Source: Eledone cirrhosa
Taxonomy: Eukaryota
DNA: 64,000 nucleotides
Direction of reading: 5' to 3'
NCBI GenBank assembly: GCA_964016885.1
Contig: OZ024751.1
Span: 20,770,001 to 20,834,000 of the forward strand
The translations under genes and the position numbers were made by a program. A model generated the notes under the pieces. The model saw only the letters and a list, made by a program, of their open reading frames with translations. It did not search any database and had not been told where the DNA came from. Positions 903 through 34,810 of this stretch are shown in pieces; position 1 is the stretch's first letter, and every line of letters begins with the position of its first letter.

Positions 903-1278
903 ATTATTATTATTATTATTATTTATTATTATTATAACAATATCTATCTAGGGCGGGTAAAATTCCCGAGATCCATGGACGAGTTCTCTCCAGTGGTCTC
1001 TGTCCCTCATCATCGCTGCCATGTCCTGTGTCTCCAACAGACCAGTGTCTGTCCTTAGGGCATCAACATACGTTAACCTTGGTCTTCCTCTTCCAGTGTG
1101 TCCATGTAGGGGCTCCCACAGGAGCACTGAGTGCAATGTCAACTCTGGATGTCGGTGAGCATGTCCAGCTAACCTCACTCTCCTCTGTGTCACTTTTGAG
1201 AGGCTCCCATACAGCTCTGAGTTTTTCATCCTCAGTGTATACTGATTAATGTTCAGAGCCATCCTCAGCATTCTCGTG
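903..1278 (-). mobile_element. RTE-clade LINE, 3' end (RT C-terminus) with (TAA)n tail
   Basis: TRMLRMALN...RRVRLAGHAHRH...GRGRPRLTYVDAL...DRDHWRELV is a typical RTE C-terminus. Confidence 0.8.
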
Positions 1279-1406
1279 TCATATTTGGGGAGGGTTATAT
1301 TGTTATACCCATCCAGATGGTGGATGGGTATAACAATATGACCCTCTCCAAATATGACAATATTTGTTTCAACACACGATTTCATATAAAAACCCTTGCA
1401 AAACAA

Positions 1407-3382: not shown

Positions 3383-3724
<342 letters not shown>

Positions 3725-4321: not shown

Positions 4322-4341
4322 AATATACATATATATATATA

Positions 4342-4538
4342 TAACGAAGGAAATGTGGTAAGGAACCAGGTGGACCATAACGCACCAAAGTACTCAATAC
4401 TTGAGGTAGTAGAGTGGGTAATAGGAACCAGTAAGACCCCGACGGCTGAGCTCAAGCCGTTTCGACGGCTAATTCTGGACTCAGAATTAGCCGTCGAAAC
4501 GGCTTGAGCTCAGCTGTCGGGGTCTTACTGGTTCCTAT
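4342..4538 (-). mobile_element. Fold-back PLE-type terminus, family A
   Basis: Tail 4342-4420 and near-perfect palindrome 4421-4538 centred on ctggactcag. Confidence 0.75.
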
Positions 4539-4556
4539 ATATATATATATATATAT

Positions 4557-4741
4557 ACGTTAATCCGGGTTGAATCGGAGGTAACCACAGTAAGTAAGGT
4601 ACTCAATACATAGCAGAGTATAAAAGTTTTAATATAGATGAGATTCTACAGGACTAGAACTGTTTCATTCATTAGAAATCATCAGATGATTTCTAATGAA
4701 TGAAACAGTTCTAGTCCTGTAGAATCTCATCTATATTAAAA

Positions 4742-4744
<3 letters not shown>
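4557..4744 (-). mobile_element. Fold-back PLE-type terminus, family C, with HHR core
   Basis: Minus strand reads CTGATGA-tttc-taat-gaat-GAAA-cag..ctg-TA; palindrome apex at about 4684. Confidence 0.75.
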
Positions 4745-4790
<46 letters not shown>

Positions 4791-5643: not shown

Positions 5644-5933
5644 TGCGAGAATGTCACCGCGTACTCGCAGCATCACTATGGAAACGTCTTGTTGAGTCAA
5701 ACTTAGCCAAGCGTTAATACTATCCACTACTCGGAGTACTCTAACTGGACTACATCTAAGTGGACTCCCTATAACGATAATTTGTTATCCCGTATATATA
5801 TATATGTAGAAGGTGAGTAATATTGTAGAACAATAAAACTATGTATATATCAAATAAGTAGCACTCAACAGTTGGTAGAACTGGAGTATATATTAAAGAA
5901 GAAATTAAAAGATGGTTAAAAAAGTTCCATATA

Positions 5934-5999
5934 TTTTATTATGCGCATTTCGAAAACAACATCATCCTGGGACAAAAATTGTGTTCTCATCAGATAAAA
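5934..5999 (-). ncRNA. Type I hammerhead ribozyme
   Basis: ttttat-CTGATGA-g..c-GAAA-tgcgca-TA-ataaaa. Confidence 0.8.
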
Positions 6000-6100
6000 T
6001 AAGGTAACATGATATGAAGCCTAAAAACACTTGTCAACAGGAAAGTGCAAAGTCTACATGTATTGACAAGTGTTTTTAGGCTTCATATAATGTTGCCTTA

Positions 6101-6166
6101 TTTTATCTGATGAGGACACAATTTTTGTCCCAGGATGATGTTGTTTTCGAAATGCGCATAATAAAA
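6101..6166 (+). ncRNA. Type I hammerhead ribozyme
   Basis: ttttat-CTGATGA-ggacac..ttttc-GAAA-tgcgca-TA-ataaaa; 6-bp stem I and palindromic stem-loop III. Confidence 0.8.
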
Positions 6167-6841
6167 TATATGGAACTTTTTTAACCATCTTTTAATTTCT
6201 TCTTTTATATGTGTGTCTGAATGTGTATGTGTCTGTATGTGTATGTGTCTGCGTGTGTATGTGTATGTGTGTCTGTATGTGTATGTGTCTGTATGTGTGT
6301 GTCTGTATCTGCATGTGTATGTGTCTGCGTGTGTATGTGTATGTGTGTCTGTATGTGTATGTGTCTGTATGTATGTCTATATGTGTCTGTGTCTGTGTGT
6401 GTCTGTATGGTATATAGCGTCGTCACCATCATCATACACAAACAGACACTCACACACACACACACACATATATATATATACATATGTACATATACCTATA
6501 TATATGTATATGTATACATATACAGACACACATACAAACACACACACTCTGTGCGTTTTTAACTCTTTAGAGAGTGTGTTCTGTGTGTGTGTGTCTGTGT
6601 GTGTCTGTATCTGGGCGTGTGTATGTGTGTGTGCGTGTGTGCGTGTGTGTGTGTGTCTGTGTGTCTGACAACTAATATATTGTGAAGTTGACCTAGTTAG
6701 ATTTTTTTAGAGCAATAAATAAATAAATAAATAAATAGGTGAATCAATAAATAAATGTTCAGCTAAACTTGTTTTCAGATCAGTTTCTTAAAAATAGCCC
6801 CAAATTAAGAAAAATGGGGGATTGTGTTTGAAAGAAGTCTC

Positions 6842-6905
<64 letters not shown>

Positions 6906-6911
<6 letters not shown>

Positions 6912-7100
6912 AAATAAGATGTGAAGACTAAAATTCGAAGAGGGTTCGATAAAGATAATATATATATATAAAATATATAAAACCGTAGAGCAAATATTTA
7001 TTAAAATAACAGATTAAAGTTTAAGCAAAGAATCGCTGCTTTCACCCTTATCCCGTTAAGGGTGAAAGCAGCGATTCTTTGCTCAAACTTTAATCTGTTA

Positions 7101-7108
<8 letters not shown>
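6906..7108 (-). mobile_element. Fold-back PLE-type terminus, family B
   Basis: Palindrome 6999-7108 centred on acccttatcccgttaagggt-GAAA; related copies at about 20725-20880, 24745-24800 and 29619-29819. Confidence 0.7.
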
Positions 7109-7134
<26 letters not shown>

Positions 7135-11985: not shown

Positions 11986-12057
11986 CGATGTAAGGTGGTC
12001 TTCTAAACAAACGTGTCTTCTGTTCTGCCTTATAGCACACACGCACACACACACACA

Positions 12058-12090
<33 letters not shown>

Positions 12091-12301
12091 CCACACACAC
12101 ACACACACACACCCACCCACCCACACATACGCGCTCGCGCACGCACACATACATACACACACACACACACACCTATATACACACACACACATATATATGT
12201 GTGTTTGTGTGTATATATTATATTTATATATATATATATATACATAGTTTCTTTGCCCTAATTAATTCTGCCATTGCTACAAAAGCTTTCTCTGGTTGTC
12301 T

Positions 12302-12333
<32 letters not shown>

Positions 12334-12337
12334 GTGT

Positions 12338-12551
12338 TATAGGAACGAGTAGGACCCCGACGGCTGAGCTCAAGCCGTTTCAACGGCTAATTCTGGACTA
12401 AAATCGTTTTTAGTCCAAAATTAGCCGTCGAAACGGCTTGAGCTCAGCCGTCGGGGTCCTACTCGTTCCTATTACCCACTCTACTACCCTAAGTATTGAG
12501 TACTTTAGTGCGTTATGGTCCACCTGGTTCCTTACCACATTTCCTTCGTTA
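12338..12551 (+). mobile_element. Fold-back PLE-type terminus, family A, with the longer central hairpin
   Basis: Palindrome 12339-12472 with apex ggactaaaa-tcgt-ttttagtcc. Confidence 0.75.
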
Positions 12552-12558
12552 TATGTGT

Positions 12559-12671
12559 TATATATAGAAATGACTTCTACGGGACTACAATTGTTTGATT
12601 CGTGTGAAATCATCAGAAATGTTTCATACGAATGAAACAGTTTTAGTCCTGTAAAAGTTATTTCTATATAA
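12559..12671. mobile_element. Diverged family C fold-back with degenerate HHR
   Basis: gaaatcatcag...gaatgaaacagttttagtcctgta. Confidence 0.6.
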
Positions 12672-13426
12672 TATAGTGAGACCTGGGCATTGTGTGCAGA
12701 GGATATACGCAGACTAGAGAGGAACGAAGCTTGCATGCTCCGCTGGATGTGTAACAGTAATATACGTGAACGGCAAAGCATAAACGAACTAAGGAAAAAA
12801 TTAGAGATAAGAGGGATCAGATGTTGTTTACTCGAGAGAAGGCTGCGTTGGTATGGACACGTGATGCGCATGAAAGTCGATAGCTGTATAACAAAGTGCA
12901 GGGCAATAAAGATAGACGGTAGCCACGGAATAGGCAGACCTAGAAAAACATGGGATGAGCTGATAAACTCCGACCTCACACACTTACACCTCTCCAAGAC
13001 AATGTCACTGGACCGAGACCTTTGGCGGTACTCAGTAACAGAGAAGACCCGCCTTGCCAGTAGGCATCTCTAACAAAATACACCCCGTCCCGCCACCACC
13101 CCCACCCCATCCACACCACCCCGTTCTATGTAAAGTTATGTTGGTGCCGCGCCATCCAGGCCGAAACAAATGAGATTGTGTAGGTGTCACGACAAAAAAA
13201 CACACAGTCCACGCTGTAATGTGGCCGTGTAGGCAACACGGTAAAAACCTCCCAGACCCACACTGTAAATGTGGTTGGTGTTAGGAAGGGCATCCAACTG
13301 TAGAAAACCTGCCAGACAGTCCTATGCGAGCAAGACAATCACTCTTGCCTCAAGTGGGACTACCCCCGTCCAAACCCATGCAAGCGTGGAACACGGACGT
13401 TAAACGTTGATGATGATGATGATGAT
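12672..13426 (+). mobile_element. RTE-clade LINE 3' end with 3' UTR and (GAT)n tail
   Basis: SETWAL...LERNEACMLRWMC...RRLRWYGHVMRM...GRPRKTWDE...DRDLWR. Confidence 0.9.
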
Positions 13427-13507
13427 AATAAATATGCCTCTACTCTACCAACGTATTGAGTACCTTTTTTAACTGTGGTTACCCCCCGACACAGCTCGTG
13501 AATCTAC

Positions 13508-13694
13508 ACGGTGGATTGGCAGTATCGGTAGAGGGTCGGACGCCATGCTTTCCAGCATAGTTACGTCCCTTTACGATCTGAGTTCAAATCCCGCCGAGGT
13601 TGACTTTGCCTTTCATCCTTACGGGGTCGATAAAATAAAGTACCAGTAATGCACTGGGTAATTGCTGGCCTTGTGACTAAAGTAGAAACAATTA
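13508..13694 (+). mobile_element. SINE S1, near full length
   Basis: A-box tggcagtatcgg, B-box gagttcaaatcc, and a central domain gcctttcatccttacggggtcgataaaataaagtaccag resembling the Meta/MESC SINE domain (from memory). Confidence 0.9.
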
Positions 13695-13878
13695 TATATA
13701 GAAAAGAGCGGATATCCAAAACAAAAACATACATTTTTTTTAGTCTGCTCCCTTCCACCCATAACTTATTAGGAAATGTTACTTTTTACTAAATTTTGCT
13801 GTCTGAAGAAATCACGATATCTATCGTCATGGAAATATGTATAACGGCTGAATTAATGAAAGTCTCTAACATCTACAA

Positions 13879-14172
13879 CAGGCATGGGCAACCTTTTTCG
13901 AGAAGCGAGCCGCATGAGATATGGCTCATCACCAGGCGGGCCGCAAGCGCTAATTTTCATTTGTGCCCACATTAAAAACAAAGGGCAGTAACTCGGGTTG
14001 TTTTGATTTGTTTCTTCAGAATTCGTACACGTTGTTTTCCTCGATCGTAAAAAAATATTCGAAAGATAAATTACGACTGAAAAGTTGGGGTAAAAAAATC
14101 AGAAAGATTTCACTTAGGTGACTTAGGAGAGCCATTCAGACAGCTTCGCGGGCCGCAGGTTGCCCACGACTG
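13879..14172. mobile_element. Non-autonomous hAT (Charlie-like) MITE
   Basis: TIRs caggcatgggcaacct / aggttgcccacgactg; perfect 8-bp TSD atctacaa; second copy at 43704-43994. Confidence 0.9.
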
Positions 14173-14807
14173 ATCTACAACTTCGCATTTTCCTCTTTAT
14201 AAATAAGGAAGAGAAGAGGGAGTTCTGGTCATTAATTAGAACATTCTAATTTTAACCAAGTTCTACATGACTGGTTAATATCAACTAATGACTTTTATTA
14301 CTATAATTCTATTCCTGAGAAGTTTGAATGTCTTTTGTAGTCCCTTGTATTGTTTTGTTTTGTCACTGCGCTGTCCTCCTCCCTTTTCTTTCTGCCTGTG
14401 TTTTATTAAAGGTGGGACGTCGGGTGTAGAGGGCGCGGGTATTTACCCCCACCCCCACCCCTACACCCTTCTCTTAATTCTGGCGTCGAATTGGTGAAGT
14501 CATTAGAGCTTAGAAGAAAAGAAAAGGGAGAAAGAAATATAAAAATACCTTGCAGTATTTCTTCTGGATCCCTGCGCTCTCATGTCAAATTCCGCTGATG
14601 TTAACATTGCCTTTCATCTTTTGAGGTTTCGAAGATCGACTGTAAAGTATATAAGCTGACCAAGATACTCTCATGGAATCACCAAATGAGTTTTATTTTA
14701 TAACAGTCCCTGAAAAGAAACAATGCAGTTATTTATAAGAAGAGTTGAAATGAATGCATGCAATATTTCCTTCATAGTCAGATTATGAACGTTTCAGTCA
14801 ACCCTCG

Positions 14808-15842
14808 TACAGTACAGTACAATACAGTATACTACATTACAGTACAGTACAATATAGTATACTACATTATAGTACAGTACAGTACAATATAGTATACTAC
14901 ATTATAGTACAGTACAGTACAATATAGTATACTACATTACAGTACATTTACAGTACAGTACAGTATATTACATTACAGTACAATACAATATAGTATACTA
15001 CATTACATTGCATTTACAGTACAGTACAATACAGTATACTACATTACAGTACAGTACATTTACAGTACAGTACAATATTATAGTATACTACATTACAGTG
15101 CCAGTACGATACAGTACACTACAATACAGTAGATTTACAGTACAGTACAGTATAGTATACTACATTATAGTACATTTACAGTACAGTACAATATAGTATA
15201 CTACATTACAGTACATTTACAGTACAGTATACTACATTACAGTACATTTACAGTACAGTATACTACATTACAGTACATTTACAGTACAGTACAGTACAAT
15301 ACAGTATACTACATTACAGTACAGTACAGTACAATACAGTATACTACATTACAGTACATTTACAGTACAGTACAATACAGTAGAATACACTACATTACAG
15401 TACATTTACAGTACAGTACAATACAGTATACTACATTACAGTACATTTACAGTACAGTACAATACAGTAGAATACACTACATTACAGTACATTTACAGTA
15501 CAGTACAGTACAGTATACTACAATACAGTACATTTACAGTACAGTACAATACAGTATACTACATTACAGTACATTTACAGTACAGTACAATACAGTAGAA
15601 TACACTACATTACAGTACATTTACAGTACAGTACAATACAGTAGAATACACTACATTACAGTACATTTACAGTACAGTACAATACAGTATACTACAATAC
15701 AGTACATTTACAGTACAGTACAATACAGTATACTACATTACAGTACATTTACAGTACAGTACAGTACAATACAGTATACTACATTACAGTACATTTACAG
15801 TACAGTATGATACAGTACAATACAGTACTGCACAGTACAATA
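14808..15842. repeat. Complex satellite of ACAGT/ACAAT/ACATT pentamers with about 41-44-bp higher-order units
   Basis: acattacagtacatttacagtacagtacaatacagtatact recurs. Confidence 0.95.
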
Positions 15843-16149
15843 TACACATACATATATACATGGAAACTTCATAGGCTGACCAAGATACTTTATTTTATAA
15901 ACAATTCAATTATTAATAAGAGTTGAAAGTAATGCATACAAGATTTCACAGCTCTAGCATCACTTGTTCATTGTCATCTTATGAACTTTCAACCGATCAT
16001 TGTAGTTAATACCAGTCAAGGTGCCGTGTATGAGTGCAACTTCTCACAAACAAGTGGTAGGGCGGTGACCTCCCAGAAACTCTATGGCACTATTTGTTCC
16101 AATATAAATACTACTAGACACAGAGAGAAAGAGAGAAATCGAGAGAGAA

Positions 16150-16204
<55 letters not shown>

Positions 16205-16303
16205 GAGGGAGAGAGAGAGAACTAGAGAGAAAGAGAGAGAAGACATTTGGAAGTCGTTTATAAAAAAAATCTACTAAGATTGGAGTTATATTATGTTGTA
16301 AAA

Positions 16304-16695
16304 GGGCGGTGGATTGGCAGTATCGGTAGAGGGTCGGACGCCATGCTTTGACGTATAGAGTTACGGCCCTTGCCATTCTGAGTTCAAATCCCGCCGAGGT
16401 TAAGTTTGCTATTCATCCTTACGGGGTCGATAAAATAAAGTACCAGTAATACACTGAGTAAATTGCTGGCCTTGTGCCAAAAGTAGAAACAATTATATTG
16501 TAAAAGGGTGGGGTGGATTACCAGTATCGGTAGAGGGTCGGACGCCATGCTTTGCAGCATAGAGTCACGTCCCTTTACGGTCTGAGATCAAATCCCACCG
16601 AGGTTAAATTTGCCTTTCATCCTTACAGGGGTGATAAAATAAAGTACCAGTAACACACTAGAGTAAATTGCTGGCCTTGTGCCAAATGTAAAAAA
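16304..16695 (+). mobile_element. Two tandem full-length SINE S1 copies
   Basis: Heads at about 16304 and 16510, each with A/B boxes. Confidence 0.9.
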
Positions 16696-21487: not shown

Positions 21488-21613
21488 GTAGGAGGTGAGT
21501 TTTATTGTAGTACAATAAAGCAATGCAGATATCGGATAAGAAGCACTCTACAGTTTGTGGGACTGGAGTATGCATAATATAAGATCAAAAGATGGTTAAA
21601 GGAGTTCAATATA

Positions 21614-21680
21614 TTTTATTATGCGCATTTCAAAAACAAACATCATCAAACAATAATATTTGTGTTTTCATCAGATAAAA
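21614..21680 (-). ncRNA. Type I hammerhead ribozyme
   Basis: Reverse complement of 24382-24448. Confidence 0.8.
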
Positions 21681-22877
21681 CAGAACATGATATGAAGGCT
21701 AAAAAAACACTTGTTGATAGTGCAGTTTTAAATCAACATATGAAAAGTGGTTTTAGATTGATGTGTGATATTGGGAAAAATATTTTATTTAGAGAGGGGG
21801 GGAGAGAAAAGGATGAAAAGGGAAGGAGATGAGAGGGAGAGATGGGTGATAGAGAGAAAGAGATAGTTTTTATAACTGAGAGGAGATATATTTTATATAG
21901 AGGGGTTGAAAACCGTTGGAAGATACTGTATAAATTAAAAATTTTGAAAATTAACGAAGGGAGGATATGTGCGAGGAAAAAATATATTATATTTAGGGAG
22001 GGGTGGGGGTGGAAAGGATGAAAAAAAGGGGAGGAGATGAGAGTGAAGGTGGAAAGGGAGAGATGGGTGATAGAGAGAAAGAGATAGTTTTTATAACTGA
22101 GAAAAAGATATAATGTTTTAATATAGAGAGGTTGGGAACCGTTGGAAGATAATGTATAAATTAAAGGAATTTGAAAATTAACGAAGGGAAATTATGTATG
22201 GAGATAGAGAGAAAAAAATAACGAAGGGAAATTATGTATGGAGATAGAGAGAAAAAAATAATAATTGTGGGTGAATATTCTAACGTCAAAAGAAGAAATG
22301 TAGGAATTTTAAAATTAGCAAAGAGAAAAAGTTTATGTGTAGAAGGATTTGAGAAAAATAATGTGAAGTTAAAGTTTTTATATTGAATTCATATGTATTA
22401 ATAATGAGTTCGTTGATGGGGAGAAAAAAATAATAATAAATTAAGGATGAAATTGAGATTTAAAAGATTTATGATAGAGAGAAAAAATAATAATGATTGC
22501 GGATGAATACTCAAAATGTCAAAAACAAATGTTATTGTTTTACGAGGAGATATAATGAGGGTGATGAGTAAACGGGTATTATAGAGTGTATAATGCCCTT
22601 TAAAGTAAGGTAGATGGGTATATTTTAAAGAATATATGAGTATATATTAAAAAAAATATATAATAATAAATTAAGGATGAAATTGAGATTAAAAAGATTT
22701 ATGATAGAGGGAAAAAAAATAATAATGATTGCGGATGAATATTCAAAATGTCAAAAAACAAATGTTATTGTTTTACGAGAAGATAGGATGAGGGTAATGA
22801 GTAAACGAGTATTATAGAGTGTATAATGCCCTTTAAAGTAAGGTAGATGGGTATATTTTAAAGAGGTGTATGTATGA

Positions 22878-23144
22878 ATATTCAAACTTAAAAGAACTAA
22901 CACTGCTCTCTCAGAACTCATATGGTCCTTAAAAGACAAAAACATTAAATATAACATCTTTTGGAAAAAGATTTCTTCTGCATCCTCGTACTTGAACAGC
23001 TCTCTATCTAAAATCTGTAATCTCTGCCTAAATGAAAAATTTACCATTATCTCTAACCTAGAATCCATAATAAATAGACGCTCGGATTTGTTTTCCATCT
23101 GCCTGCATAAATTCCATAGAACTTTTCACAAAGTATACAGTTAA
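22878..23144 (+). pseudogene. PLE GIY-YIG endonuclease C-terminal fragment (Naiad-like)
   Basis: Hand translation: NTALSELIWSLKDKNIKYNIFWKKISSASSY...CNLCLNEKFTII...INRRSDLFSICLHK; absent from the ORF track. Confidence 0.8.
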
Positions 23145-24381
23145 TATTCAATTCTTTATCAATTTAGAATCTTTTCTCAAAGGCACATATACATACACTT
23201 CTTTAAAATATACCCATCTACCTTACTTTAAAGGGCATTATACACTCTATAATACTCGTTTACTCATTACCCTCATCCTCTCTTCTCGTAAAACAATAAC
23301 ATTTGTTTTTGACATTTTGAATATTCATCCGCAATCATTATTATTTTTTTCCCTCTATCATAAATCTTTTTAATCTCAATTTCATCCTTAATTTATTATT
23401 ATATATTTTTTTTAATATATACTCATATATTCTTTAAAATATACCCATCTACCTTACTTTAAAGGGCATTATACACTCTATAATACCCGTTTACTCATCA
23501 CCCTCATTATATCTCCTCGTAAAACAATAACATTTGTTTTTGACATTTTGAGTATTCATCCGCAATCATTATTATTTTTTCTCTCTATCATAAATCTTTT
23601 TAATCTCAATTTCATCCTTAATTTATTATTATTTTTTTCTCCCCATCAACGAACTCATTATTAATACATATGAATTCAATATAAAAACTTTAACTTCACA
23701 TTATTTTTCTCAAATCCTTCTACACATAAACTTTTTCTCTTTGCTAATTTTAAAATTCCTACATTTCTTCTTTTGACGTTAGAATATTCACCCACAATTA
23801 TTATTTTTTTCTCTCTATCTCCATACATAATTTCCCTTCGTTATTTTTTTCTCTCTATCTCCATACATAATTTCCCTTCGTTAATTTTCAAATTCCTTTA
23901 ATTTATACATTATCTTCCAACGGTTCCCAACCTCTCTATATTAAAACATTATATCTTTTTCTCAGTTATAAAAACTATCTCTTTCTCTCTATCACCCATC
24001 TCTCCCTTTCCACCTTCACTCTCATCTCCTCCCCTTTTTTTCATCCTTTCCACCCCCACCCCTCCCTAAATATAATATATTTTTTCCTCGCACATATCCT
24101 CCCTTCGTTAATTTTCAAAATTTTTAATTTATACAGTATCTTCCAACGGTTTTCAACCCCTCTATATAAAATATATCTCCTCTCAGTTATAAAAACTATC
24201 TCTTTCTCTCTATCACCCATCTCTCCCTCTCATCTCCTTCCCTTTTCATCCTTTTCTCTCCCCCCCTCTCTAAATAAAATATTTTTCCCAATATCACACA
24301 TCAATCTAAAACCACTTTTCATATGTTGATTTAAAACTGCACTATCAACAAGTGTTTTTTTAGCCTTCATATCATGTTCTG

Positions 24382-24448
24382 TTTTATCTGATGAAAACAC
24401 AAATATTATTGTTTGATGATGTTTGTTTTTGAAATGCGCATAATAAAA
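24382..24448 (+). ncRNA. Type I hammerhead ribozyme
   Basis: ttttat-CTGATGA-aaacac..gttttt-GAAA-tgcgca-TA-ataaaa. Confidence 0.8.
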
Positions 24449-24591
24449 TATATTGAACTCCTTTAACCATCTTTTGATCTTATATTATATATATATATAT
24501 ATATAGTAAAAAATTGAACGGGAACAAAACAGAGAGGCAGTACGAACAAAGGTTTATTAGTTTAGTTTCACGCACCTGAGAGTGGGGTGGT

Positions 24592-29540: not shown

Positions 29541-29624
<84 letters not shown>

Positions 29625-29960
29625 AAATAAGATGTGAAGACTAAAATTCGAAGAGGGTTCGATAAAGATAATATATATATAAAATATATAAAACCGTAGA
29701 GCAAATATTTATTAAAATAACAGATTAAAGTTTAAGCAAAGAATCGCTGCTTTCACCCTTATCCCGTTAAGGGTGAAAGCAGCGATTCTTTGCTTAAACT
29801 TTAATCTGTTATTTTAATATATATATATATATATATAATAATTGTTTCTACTTTTGGCACAAGGCCAGCAATGACTCAGTACATTACTGGTATTTTATTT
29901 TATCGACCCTGTAAGGATGAAAGGCAAAGTTAACCTCGGCGGGATTTGAACTCAGACCGT
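29375..29960 (+). repeat. Duplicate of the composite segment at about 6678-7260
   Basis: Near-identical unique sequence + TA run + family B hairpin + SINE. Confidence 0.9.
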
Positions 29961-34274: not shown

Positions 34275-34625
34275 TAAACGGAATAGAAAATGCTGACAAA
34301 TTGTTCACAGTGAAAAATAGTTTAATTAGGAATAAGTGAGAATTAGTAATAGTATTGGTTAGTATTCAGTTTTGGTTTTAAGTTTTACCGGTTGCGCATT
34401 TCTAATGCTTTTCAAAAATAATTTTGAGATAGAGCGTCCGTGATGTTTGCTCTGATCTATATATATATATAGTAATAATAGTAATAATAATAAAATTGAA
34501 ATATTAAAGAGTTAAACAAGATTCAATGAGTACATCAAAGAATGAGTTTTACAGTAGATTGGAAGCACTCTACAAGTAAATATTTTCCAGAGGTAACAAA
34601 ATAGATGTTCTTGTGATCAATTAAA

Positions 34626-34689
34626 TTTTATTATACATATTTCAGAGGTACTTGAATCAGGTTCAACAGTACGTCCTCATCAGATAAAA
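34626..34689 (-). ncRNA. Type I hammerhead ribozyme in a fold-back terminus (about 34490-34745)
   Basis: ttttat-CTGATGA-ggacgtac..gtacctct-GAAA-tatgta-TA-ataaaa. Confidence 0.75.
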
Positions 34690-34753
34690 TCAAATTATTT
34701 TATCAATAAAATTTAATTGATCACAAGAACATCTATTTTGTTAATATTTGAAT

Positions 34754-34810
<57 letters not shown>

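What the first reader, a model, noticed from the sequence alone, without database searches (positions are those of the whole stretch)
4421..4538. Fold-back turning points coincide with ribozyme helices, suggesting snap-back self-priming of cDNA
Seen: family A (3383, 4421, 12339) reads hairpin-GAAACGGCT-tgagctc-AGCCGTC-gggg, an HHR 3' half. The palindrome axis is the loop of what would be stem II, and CTGANGA is replaced by the mirror copy. Family B (6999, 29710) does the same at acccttatcccgttaagggt-GAAA. Family C (4684, 12615, 46570) and the 34690 element turn just upstream of CTGANGA, at stem I. Inference: reverse transcription stalls in the ribozyme, and the cDNA folds on the pre-existing helix and extends on itself. 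That would explain inverted pseudo-LTRs and the asymmetric tail on one arm. I do not know of this breakpoint rule being described.
Basis: partly seen in the sequence, partly recalled or inferred. Interest (0 to 1): 0.85.

Follow-up and report, generated by a model that had tools for sequence, protein, structure and literature searches.

The report
Penelope hairpins turn at transcript start
The hairpin-shaped stubs that Penelope-like jumping genes leave by the thousand in this animal genome turn around mostly at one fixed base, likely the capped start of the element's RNA, and not along ribozyme helices, which suggests that two DNA copies likely run off the RNA's front end and are joined head to head.

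Summary
The palindromes and the hammerhead 3' half are real, but the helix/snap-back rule fails. The elements are Hydra-clade Penelope-like retrotransposons (one intact 707-aa ORF; 12,000-16,600 exact tail matches per family). Turning points pile up at one adenine (+1): 49 of 67 fold-backs in family A, 28 of 41 in C, 9 of 24 in B. That base is the start of stem I in B and C, lies in loop II in A, and is 57-90 nt upstream of the core in the D families. It has an initiator-like context, a TATA-like box near -30 (A, C), and an untemplated G before it (87 of 100 C junctions; control 25 of 100): the known mark of a copied RNA cap. The native loop is not kept. The tail-less arm often reaches further, and both arms can end at +1 one base apart, which snap-back cannot make. 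A smaller pile-up sits at the ribozyme cut site. Best model (inferred): two cDNAs start internally, run off the RNA 5' end and are joined. No RNA data were available. Self-priming was proposed in 2013; I did not find the cap-site rule in print. This scan noted fold-back stubs in other genomes.

The parts
4343..4481 (-). Family A tail-bearing arm, from +1 (4481, inferred cap site) to the end of the tail at the TA repeat
   Evidence: +1 motif at 4481 on the minus strand
4482..4538 (+). Family A tail-less arm, element positions +5 to +61; its 3' end is fixed (49 of 67 tail-less arms end at +61)
4478..4481 (-). Palindrome spacer = element positions +1..+4, part of hammerhead loop II and not a native stem loop
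4343..4420 (-). Tail: stretch between the two inferred reverse-transcription start sites
   Evidence: tail defined this way in PMC11167929
4436..4475 (-). Hammerhead 3' half (stem II 3' arm, GAAA at 4463, stem III, predicted cut 4441/4440, stem I 3' arm); mirror copy on + with GAAA at 4496
3383..3586 (+). Family A fold-back with a templated insertion at the junction (about 3430-3455); tail arm starts at +8
12339..12549 (+). Family A fold-back; both arms reach +1 (12399 on minus, 12412 on plus) with extra T/A runs and a short spacer
4560..4749 (-). Family C fold-back; tail arm starts at +7 (first base of the core), tail-less arm at +9
46430..46641 (-). Family C fold-back; tail arm reaches +2 and holds a whole type I hammerhead
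6910..7113 (-). Family B fold-back; tail arm starts at +19, tail-less arm at +12, so the spacer belongs to the tail-less arm
29612..29824 (-). Duplicate of the 6999 element with the same flanks; not an independent insertion
5890..6210 (.). D1-family fold-back with whole hammerheads on both arms; minus-strand arm starts at 6061, 68 nt upstream of the core
34595..34760 (.). D4-family element; one arm ends just upstream of the core, the other starts at the stem I 3' strand near the predicted cut site
   Evidence: read by eye

Best explanation
These are short insertion products of Hydra-clade Penelope-like elements whose two arms end mostly at one fixed base, likely the capped first base of the element's RNA, and they likely form when two cDNAs primed from the two cut target strands run off that end and are joined head to head. 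Steps. (1) Shown: insertion in TA repeats, a fixed tail-less start (+61 in A) and a fixed tail end. (2) Inferred, from the two internal start sites and both-strand priming shown in vitro for another Penelope element: a dimeric enzyme starts one cDNA at each site on the same sense RNA. (3) Shown: arm ends stop at +1 and carry an extra G; inferred: this is run-off at the cap of an RNA polymerase II transcript started in the pseudo-LTR. (4) Shown: junctions are blunt, have short microhomology or carry small templated insertions; inferred: end joining or template jumping. (5) Inferred: priming in the 3' pseudo-LTR gives long copies in which both arms read through +1. (6) Shown: a minor pile-up at the hammerhead cut site in family A; inferred: run-off from self-cleaved RNA. 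Ribozyme helices at most supply microhomology in a few percent of junctions.
For: Wall: 49 of 67 (A), 28 of 41 (C) and 9 of 24 (B) fold-backs turn within a few bases of +1; only 1, 0 and 1 turn in the 45 nt upstream. Genome-wide, 1,719 family C arm ends lie at +1 against 160 at +4. Extra G, hand-counted from the first 100 listed rows: C 87 of 100 against 25 of 100 at +4 (Fisher p 2e-19); B 48 of 80 junction rows; A 40 of 92; 4 of 32 at the uncapped ribozyme cut site. TATA-like box at -29 to -31 in 17 of 21 native A rows; TATAAAT at -30 in 4 of 9 distinct native C upstream sequences. +1 lies about 170-230 nt before the ORF start, and L266 runs from a fold-back at +2/+5 through the tail into the ORF. 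Both arms complete to +1 with a one-base spacer: 20 junctions by hand (8, 7, 5); a hairpin primer needs a longer loop. The tail-less arm reaches further 5' in 47 of 105 fairly comparable pairs, and about 16 of 132 pairs have arms that do not overlap (two artefacts removed by eye). In long copies the partner arm also reads through in 13 of 13 cases seen (L101 corrected). D families stop at an initiator-like A 57-90 nt before the core in 15 of 35 rows that reach it. Cut site: about 135 junctions against about 26 at a control position, and 9 of 32 have both arms ending at the cut.
Against: No RNA 5' end was observed; the start site is inferred from DNA alone. Family B and D1-D3 show no clear TATA box at -30. 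Many B copies read through or stop inside the tail, so the wall there is weaker. In family A the G share is lower, a second start near -4 is needed, and a frequent +1/+7 junction could be read as a native mini-hairpin. The excess of longer tail-less arms is not significant once ascertainment is corrected (18 vs 9 by 10 nt or more, p 0.12). The two arms nearly always share subfamily letters (73 and 46 shared rare letters against 91 and 66 differences in A and C), which snap-back also predicts. Deletions after insertion can shorten either arm. Many G rows are ambiguous because the other arm also ends in G. The cut-site peak rests on one control position and sits at a G run. The D start motifs were chosen after seeing the rows.
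Confidence: 0.72

Rival explanations
1. One reading: reverse transcription stalls in the ribozyme, the cDNA folds on a native helix and extends on itself.
For: B and C turning points fall at the stem I 5' strand. Three or four junctions use native helix complementarity. Arms share subfamily letters. The 34690 element joins at stem I.
Against: Native loop II and the native 5' arm are absent from family A fold-backs. 49 of 67 A turning points are in loop II. D families turn 57-90 nt upstream of the core. It does not explain the extra G, the one-base spacers, longer tail-less arms or non-overlapping arms.
Confidence: 0.05
2. Run-off at the cap is real, but the second arm is made by snap-back: one cDNA reaches the cap, gains a few untemplated bases, folds on itself and copies back, with the tail supplied by the same or a second cDNA.
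For: Accounts for the wall, the G and the shared letters. The tail arm is the longer one in 43 of 132 pairs. Templated insertions such as the one at 3430-3455 look like fold-and-copy events. The +1/+7 junction in A forms a neat 6-nt-loop hairpin.
Against: One-base spacers with both arms complete. Junctions where each arm has its own extra base. Non-overlapping arms. The fixed +61 end matches a start site better than a stop site.
Confidence: 0.15
3. The wall is a fixed RNA processing or stall site (splice acceptor, nuclease cut, bound protein) and the G is added by terminal transferase activity, not copied from a cap.
For: No direct transcript data. In Drosophila virilis Penelope an intron end maps to the 5' end of helix I (PMC4209133). 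B lacks a clear TATA box.
Against: The G is rare at the uncapped cut site (4 of 32). TATA-like boxes sit near -30 in A and C, and the context is pyrimidine-A in every family. The bases before +1 are TT, TC or CC, not the AG of a splice acceptor.
Confidence: 0.06
4. Junction positions were shaped after insertion, by deletion at the centre of unstable palindromes.
For: Some copies have internal deletions (L158, L211, L065). Perfect palindromes are unstable (own knowledge).
Against: Non-inverted stubs and chimeras stop at the same base with the same G. Deletion cannot create a sharp one-sided wall. It may blur positions downstream of +1.
Confidence: 0.02

Closest known systems
Hydra clade of C-terminal-endonuclease Penelope-like elements (Craig et al. 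2021, PMC8557442; passages read)
   Same: Single ORF with RWR, DKT, CxCX5C linker and CxxC/CxH motifs; TA-repeat targets; hammerhead in the pseudo-LTR; inverted 5'-truncated copy and optional tail.
   Different: Here copies number in the tens of thousands and are mostly stubs. The tail is about 50-80 nt rather than 30-40. The passages read do not map inversion points and call the mechanism open.
Self-priming model for head-to-head palindromes in Adineta vaga Penelope (Arkhipova et al. 2013, PMC3846280; passages and Discussion read)
   Same: Same architecture; it also notes a TATA box and initiator-like sequence in the pseudo-LTR.
   Different: It favours self-priming on an antisense template and leaves the question open. 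The data here point to a capped sense template and two cDNAs.
Poseidon element of Anolis in vitro (Frangieh et al. 2024, PMC11167929; parts 1-2 of 4 read)
   Same: Two internal start sites that bracket the tail, extension of both target strands, predicted dimer; 5' truncation of the RNA shortens the product.
   Different: It does not, in the parts read, explain inversions or map genomic 5' ends. It found no RNA-seq ends at the ribozyme cut, whereas family A DNA copies show a small pile-up there.
Cap-derived untemplated G and twin priming of LINE-1 (G: PMC9341517, passages; twin priming recalled)
   Same: Extra G at the 5' end of complete cDNAs; two target strands priming on one RNA.
   Different: LINE-1 twin priming inverts a non-overlapping segment. 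Here both cDNAs usually copy the same 60-75 nt, giving a palindrome.
Minimal hammerheads of Penelope-like elements (Cervera and De la Pena 2014, PMC4209133; passages)
   Same: Type I fold, unpaired base at the 5' end of stem II, U3-A8 core variant, palindromic loop 3, paired motifs on opposite strands.
   Different: In family A the inferred start site lies inside loop II, so the 5' transcript end would hold half a ribozyme. Family B has a CAGAAGA core.

Membership tests
Hydra-clade Penelope-like element | Single short ORF, reverse transcriptase then C-terminal GIY-YIG | tested here: met
   Family B: L273 has pseudo-LTRs 3,258 nt apart and an open 707-aa frame; families A and C have related, broken frames. 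Pfam gave no hit on the 707-aa protein. A related endonuclease fragment in L043 hit GIY-YIG weakly, E 0.0012, below the cutoff.
Hydra-clade Penelope-like element | RWK-type motif, DKT in place of DKG, CxCX5C linker, CxxC and CxH around the conserved E and N | tested here: met
   Read by eye in the L273 translation (RWR, DKT, CNCRNRADC, CDLC, CKH) against the description.
Hydra-clade Penelope-like element | Insertion into TA repeats | tested here: met
   Tail ends run into simple repeats in 139 of 141 (A), 65 of 69 (C) and 70 of 83 (B) cases (the test also accepts TG and CA runs).
Hydra-clade Penelope-like element | Placement in a reverse-transcriptase tree with reference Hydra proteins | not tested
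   No reference sequences were in hand.
Type I hammerhead ribozyme (family A) | Stems I-III, CUGANGA or U3-A8 core, GAAA, UH | tested here: inconclusive
   Stems can be drawn by eye. The core is U3-A8 in 10 of 21 rows and a C3/A8 mismatch in 9. Minimum-energy folding of L083 did not give the ribozyme fold. Rfam listed no hammerhead among the 150 of 399 rows shown.
Type I hammerhead ribozyme (family A) | Self-cleavage | not testable with these tools
   Indirect only: arm ends pile up at the predicted cut.
RNA polymerase II core promoter with capped start | TATA near -30, pyrimidine-purine initiator, capped 5' ends at +1 | tested here: inconclusive
   Motif positions met in A and C, TATA not evident in B; the initiator consensus is recalled. 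Cap inferred from the extra G. No RNA was available.
Snap-back product on a native helix | Native loop and both native helix strands kept at the centre, on the first-made (tail-bearing) arm | tested here: not met
   3-4 of 132 junctions use a native helix, and the loop is on the tail-less arm in the three clear cases.

The most novel reading that the evidence does not exclude
Penelope-like elements integrate by symmetric double priming: a dimer copies one capped sense RNA from two internal sites into both broken target ends, and the two cDNAs are joined at their run-off ends. The genome thereby records, base by base, each family's transcription start and its in vivo ribozyme cut. This would explain inverted pseudo-LTRs, the one-sided tail and the mass of stubs with a single rule, and settle the sense-versus-antisense template question.
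Probability: 0.6. Interest if true: 0.75.

Novelty: new variant of a known kind. Interest (0 to 1): 0.62.

Why it matters
How Penelope-like elements make head-to-head inverted ends is called unresolved in the papers read (PMC3846280, PMC8557442, PMC11167929), and so is the role of their ribozymes. A fixed turning point with a cap signature names the template (capped, sense, started in the pseudo-LTR). It gives base-exact predictions for 5' mapping and for the existing in vitro system. It also offers a DNA-only way to read promoters and ribozyme activity of these elements in any genome. The elements and their architecture are known kinds; the new part is the rule and the mechanism it implies.

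Tried and rejected
The inverted-repeat tool was swamped by microsatellites, so I used a script. The Rfam scan listed microRNA-type hairpin hits and no hammerhead in the 150 of 399 rows shown. The first genome search selected for copies holding the stem II arm, so L001-L030 were left out of the arm statistics. An apparent G/A difference between arms in that set came from this selection and from junction sequence. The first breakpoint mapper over-extended through junctions; the stricter one crashed on saving and was rerun with adjusted penalties. I first guessed Neptune clade from an endonuclease fragment; the full ORF fits Hydra. The idea that tail-less arms are significantly longer did not survive correction for ascertainment. 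The idea that the two arms come from different RNAs was mostly not supported (a few discordant pairs such as L056 and L108 seen by eye). Sequencing runs: no RNA holder listed, so no reads were laid. Unconstrained folding did not return the family A ribozyme. Seven paper searches found no report of inversion points at the cap site. The library lacks most subscription papers, including older Penelope reviews, and no supplements were read.

Full report
Setting. The window lies in a 3.0-Gb animal assembly rich in TA, CA and GA repeats. An octopus is my guess from size and repeat content; it was not tested. At 4421-4538 the arms are 57 nt with one mismatch and a 4-nt spacer, and the tail-bearing arm runs on the minus strand from 4481 to about 4343. 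The copies at 6999 and 29710 share 600 bp including flanks and count once.

What the elements are. Exact tail patterns match 16,611 (A), 12,082 (C) and 16,399 (B) places. Following copies whose tail continues led to coding elements. L273 has an open 707-aa frame between two family B pseudo-LTRs, and A and C have related, broken frames. The motifs RWR, DKT, CxCX5C, CxxC and CxH, and the TA targets, match the Hydra clade as described in PMC8557442 (passages). Pfam did not recognise the protein, and no tree was built.

Native ribozymes. Read-through family A copies carry a five-base stem I, a core reading YTGAKAA, a stem II of about ten pairs with a loop of about 33 nt, then GAAA, stem III and GUC. 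The U3-A8 variant is described in PMC4209133 (passages), but 9 of 21 rows have a C3/A8 mismatch. Family C has a compact CTGATGA hammerhead, and family B a CAGAAGA core.

Breakpoint map. I anchored on tails only and took copies in listing order on contig 1: 95 A rows (the last 5 of 100 listed hits were not fetched), 74 C and 65 B, with exact duplicates removed but segmental duplicates kept and L001-L030 excluded. Fold-backs with an adjacent tail-less arm numbered 67, 41 and 24. The most upstream base fell within -4..+5, -1..+5 and -3..+5 of one adenine in 49, 28 and 9 of them, and in the 45 nt upstream in only 1, 0 and 1. The window was drawn after seeing the data, so the small p-values there are descriptive. 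That adenine is the first base of stem I in B and C but lies in loop II in A. For A the helix map reads: loop region 49, stem II 3' arm 8, GAAA 3, stem III 2, stem I 2, other 3. In four more hammerhead families in the same loci, 15 of 35 rows that reach an initiator-like A 57-90 nt before the core stop there, 19 read through and 1 is unclear (motifs picked by eye; 21 further rows did not reach or show the motif). The window's 5890-6210 element is one of those that stop.

Why that base is probably the cap site. Native A has a TATA-like box at -29 to -31 in 17 of 21 rows. Native C has TATAAAT at -30 in 4 of 9 distinct sequences, a variant at -29 in 2, at -37 in 1, and none in 2. B and D1-D3 show no clear box. 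Genome-wide, family C arms that start at +1 without the native C number 1,719, and the preceding base is G in 87 of the first 100 rows (hand count). At +4 there are 160, with G in 25 of 100. In B, 48 of 80 junction rows have G and 20 rows were read-through variants. In A, 40 of 92 have G and 8 rows were native; a second start near -4 shows. An untemplated G is the recognised trace of a copied cap in LINE-1 (PMC9341517, passages). An internal control comes from the predicted ribozyme cut in A: 32 of 100 listed rows of 421 are true junctions, against 9 of 100 of 289 at +46. Nine of the 32 have both arms ending at the cut, and only 4 have a G before it. Against this reading: no RNA was seen, many G rows are ambiguous by one base, and the cut-site test has one control position.

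Snap-back or two cDNAs. Snap-back of the tail-bearing cDNA requires that arm to reach at least as far 5' as its mirror and to leave a foldable loop. The tail-less arm reaches further in 74 of 132 pairs, and in 47 of 105 after removing pairs that could not be mirrored. The excess by 10 nt or more is then not significant (18 vs 9, p 0.12), so the argument rests on such pairs being common, not on their majority. About 16 pairs have arms that do not overlap, mostly in B (18 listed, L158 and L211 removed as internal deletions). Twenty junctions in the listings have both arms complete to +1 with one base between them (hand count). Junction types were 49 microhomology, 20 blunt and 63 with insertions. 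Only 3-4 use a native helix. In long copies the partner arm also reads through +1 in 13 of 13 cases seen; 28 had no partner within the locus. Arms nearly always share subfamily letters, which fits one RNA copied twice but fits snap-back equally. Later deletions could account for some uneven pairs.

Model. Shown in vitro for a Poseidon element: internal initiation at two sites bracketing the tail, extension of both target strands, and a predicted dimer (PMC11167929, parts 1-2 of 4). Inferred here: when this happens in the 5' pseudo-LTR, about 60 and 110-150 nt from the cap, both cDNAs run off the 5' end, often copying the cap, and are joined to close the break, giving a short head-to-head palindrome with a tail on one side. 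In the 3' pseudo-LTR the same reaction gives long, variably truncated inverted copies. Self-cleaved RNA gives a minor class that turns at the cut. My odds: cap site 0.85, two-cDNA joining as the main route about 0.75, the whole model 0.72.

Prior work. The architecture is standard (PMC8557442). A pseudo-LTR promoter is known for Drosophila Penelope (PMC2377424, passages). The retrozyme preprint 10.64898/2026.07.22.740005 (part 1 of 5) concerns tandem arrays. Searches found no statement that inversion points mark the cap site or the ribozyme cut. Subscription papers and supplements, which I did not see, may bear on this. Four earlier notes of this scan describe fold-back stubs in other genomes; none shown mentions a cap site, and none changed my reading.

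Verdict. It is replaced by a sharper rule that makes an open mechanistic question testable. Interest 0.62.

Noticed in passing
window 21569-24493: 1,150-nt perfect inverted repeat with 625 nt between the arms; D1 hammerhead cores at 21674 (minus) and 24388 (plus) suggest a young long Penelope-like insertion.
   Followed up: no
window 45275-45829, 40370, 54241; loci: D2-D4 families keep a splice-donor-like GGTAYGT about 25-50 nt upstream of the core, so the hammerhead may lie in an intron near the transcript start.
   Followed up: no
L154, L273 and other family B copies: Family B, with 16,399 tail matches and an intact ORF, has a CAGAAGA core in nearly all copies: a probably dead ribozyme in a successful family.
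   Followed up: partly
L083, L041, L034 (positions -31 to -24): In family A the TATA-like box overlaps the 5' strand of ribozyme stem II, and the inferred start splits the ribozyme, so only read-through RNA could hold a whole one.
   Followed up: partly
L100:1610-2330: Fold-back followed by two 257-nt tandem units, each running from about +1 through the tail and 5' leader to the first codons: repeated jumps back to the 5' end.
   Followed up: partly
L035:1440-1640: Both arms carry the tail and meet just after the ribozyme cut site.
   Followed up: no
window 1277-1359, 25021, 35002, 35124: A further palindrome and other hammerhead-like cores of a different repeat family.
   Followed up: no
window 4335-4790 and 12339-12680: Families A and C are stacked next to each other in the same TA tracts, and their tails share a GTATTGAGTAC motif.
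   Followed up: no
window 55199-57514: About 2.3 kb of almost pure TA/TG microsatellite.
   Followed up: no
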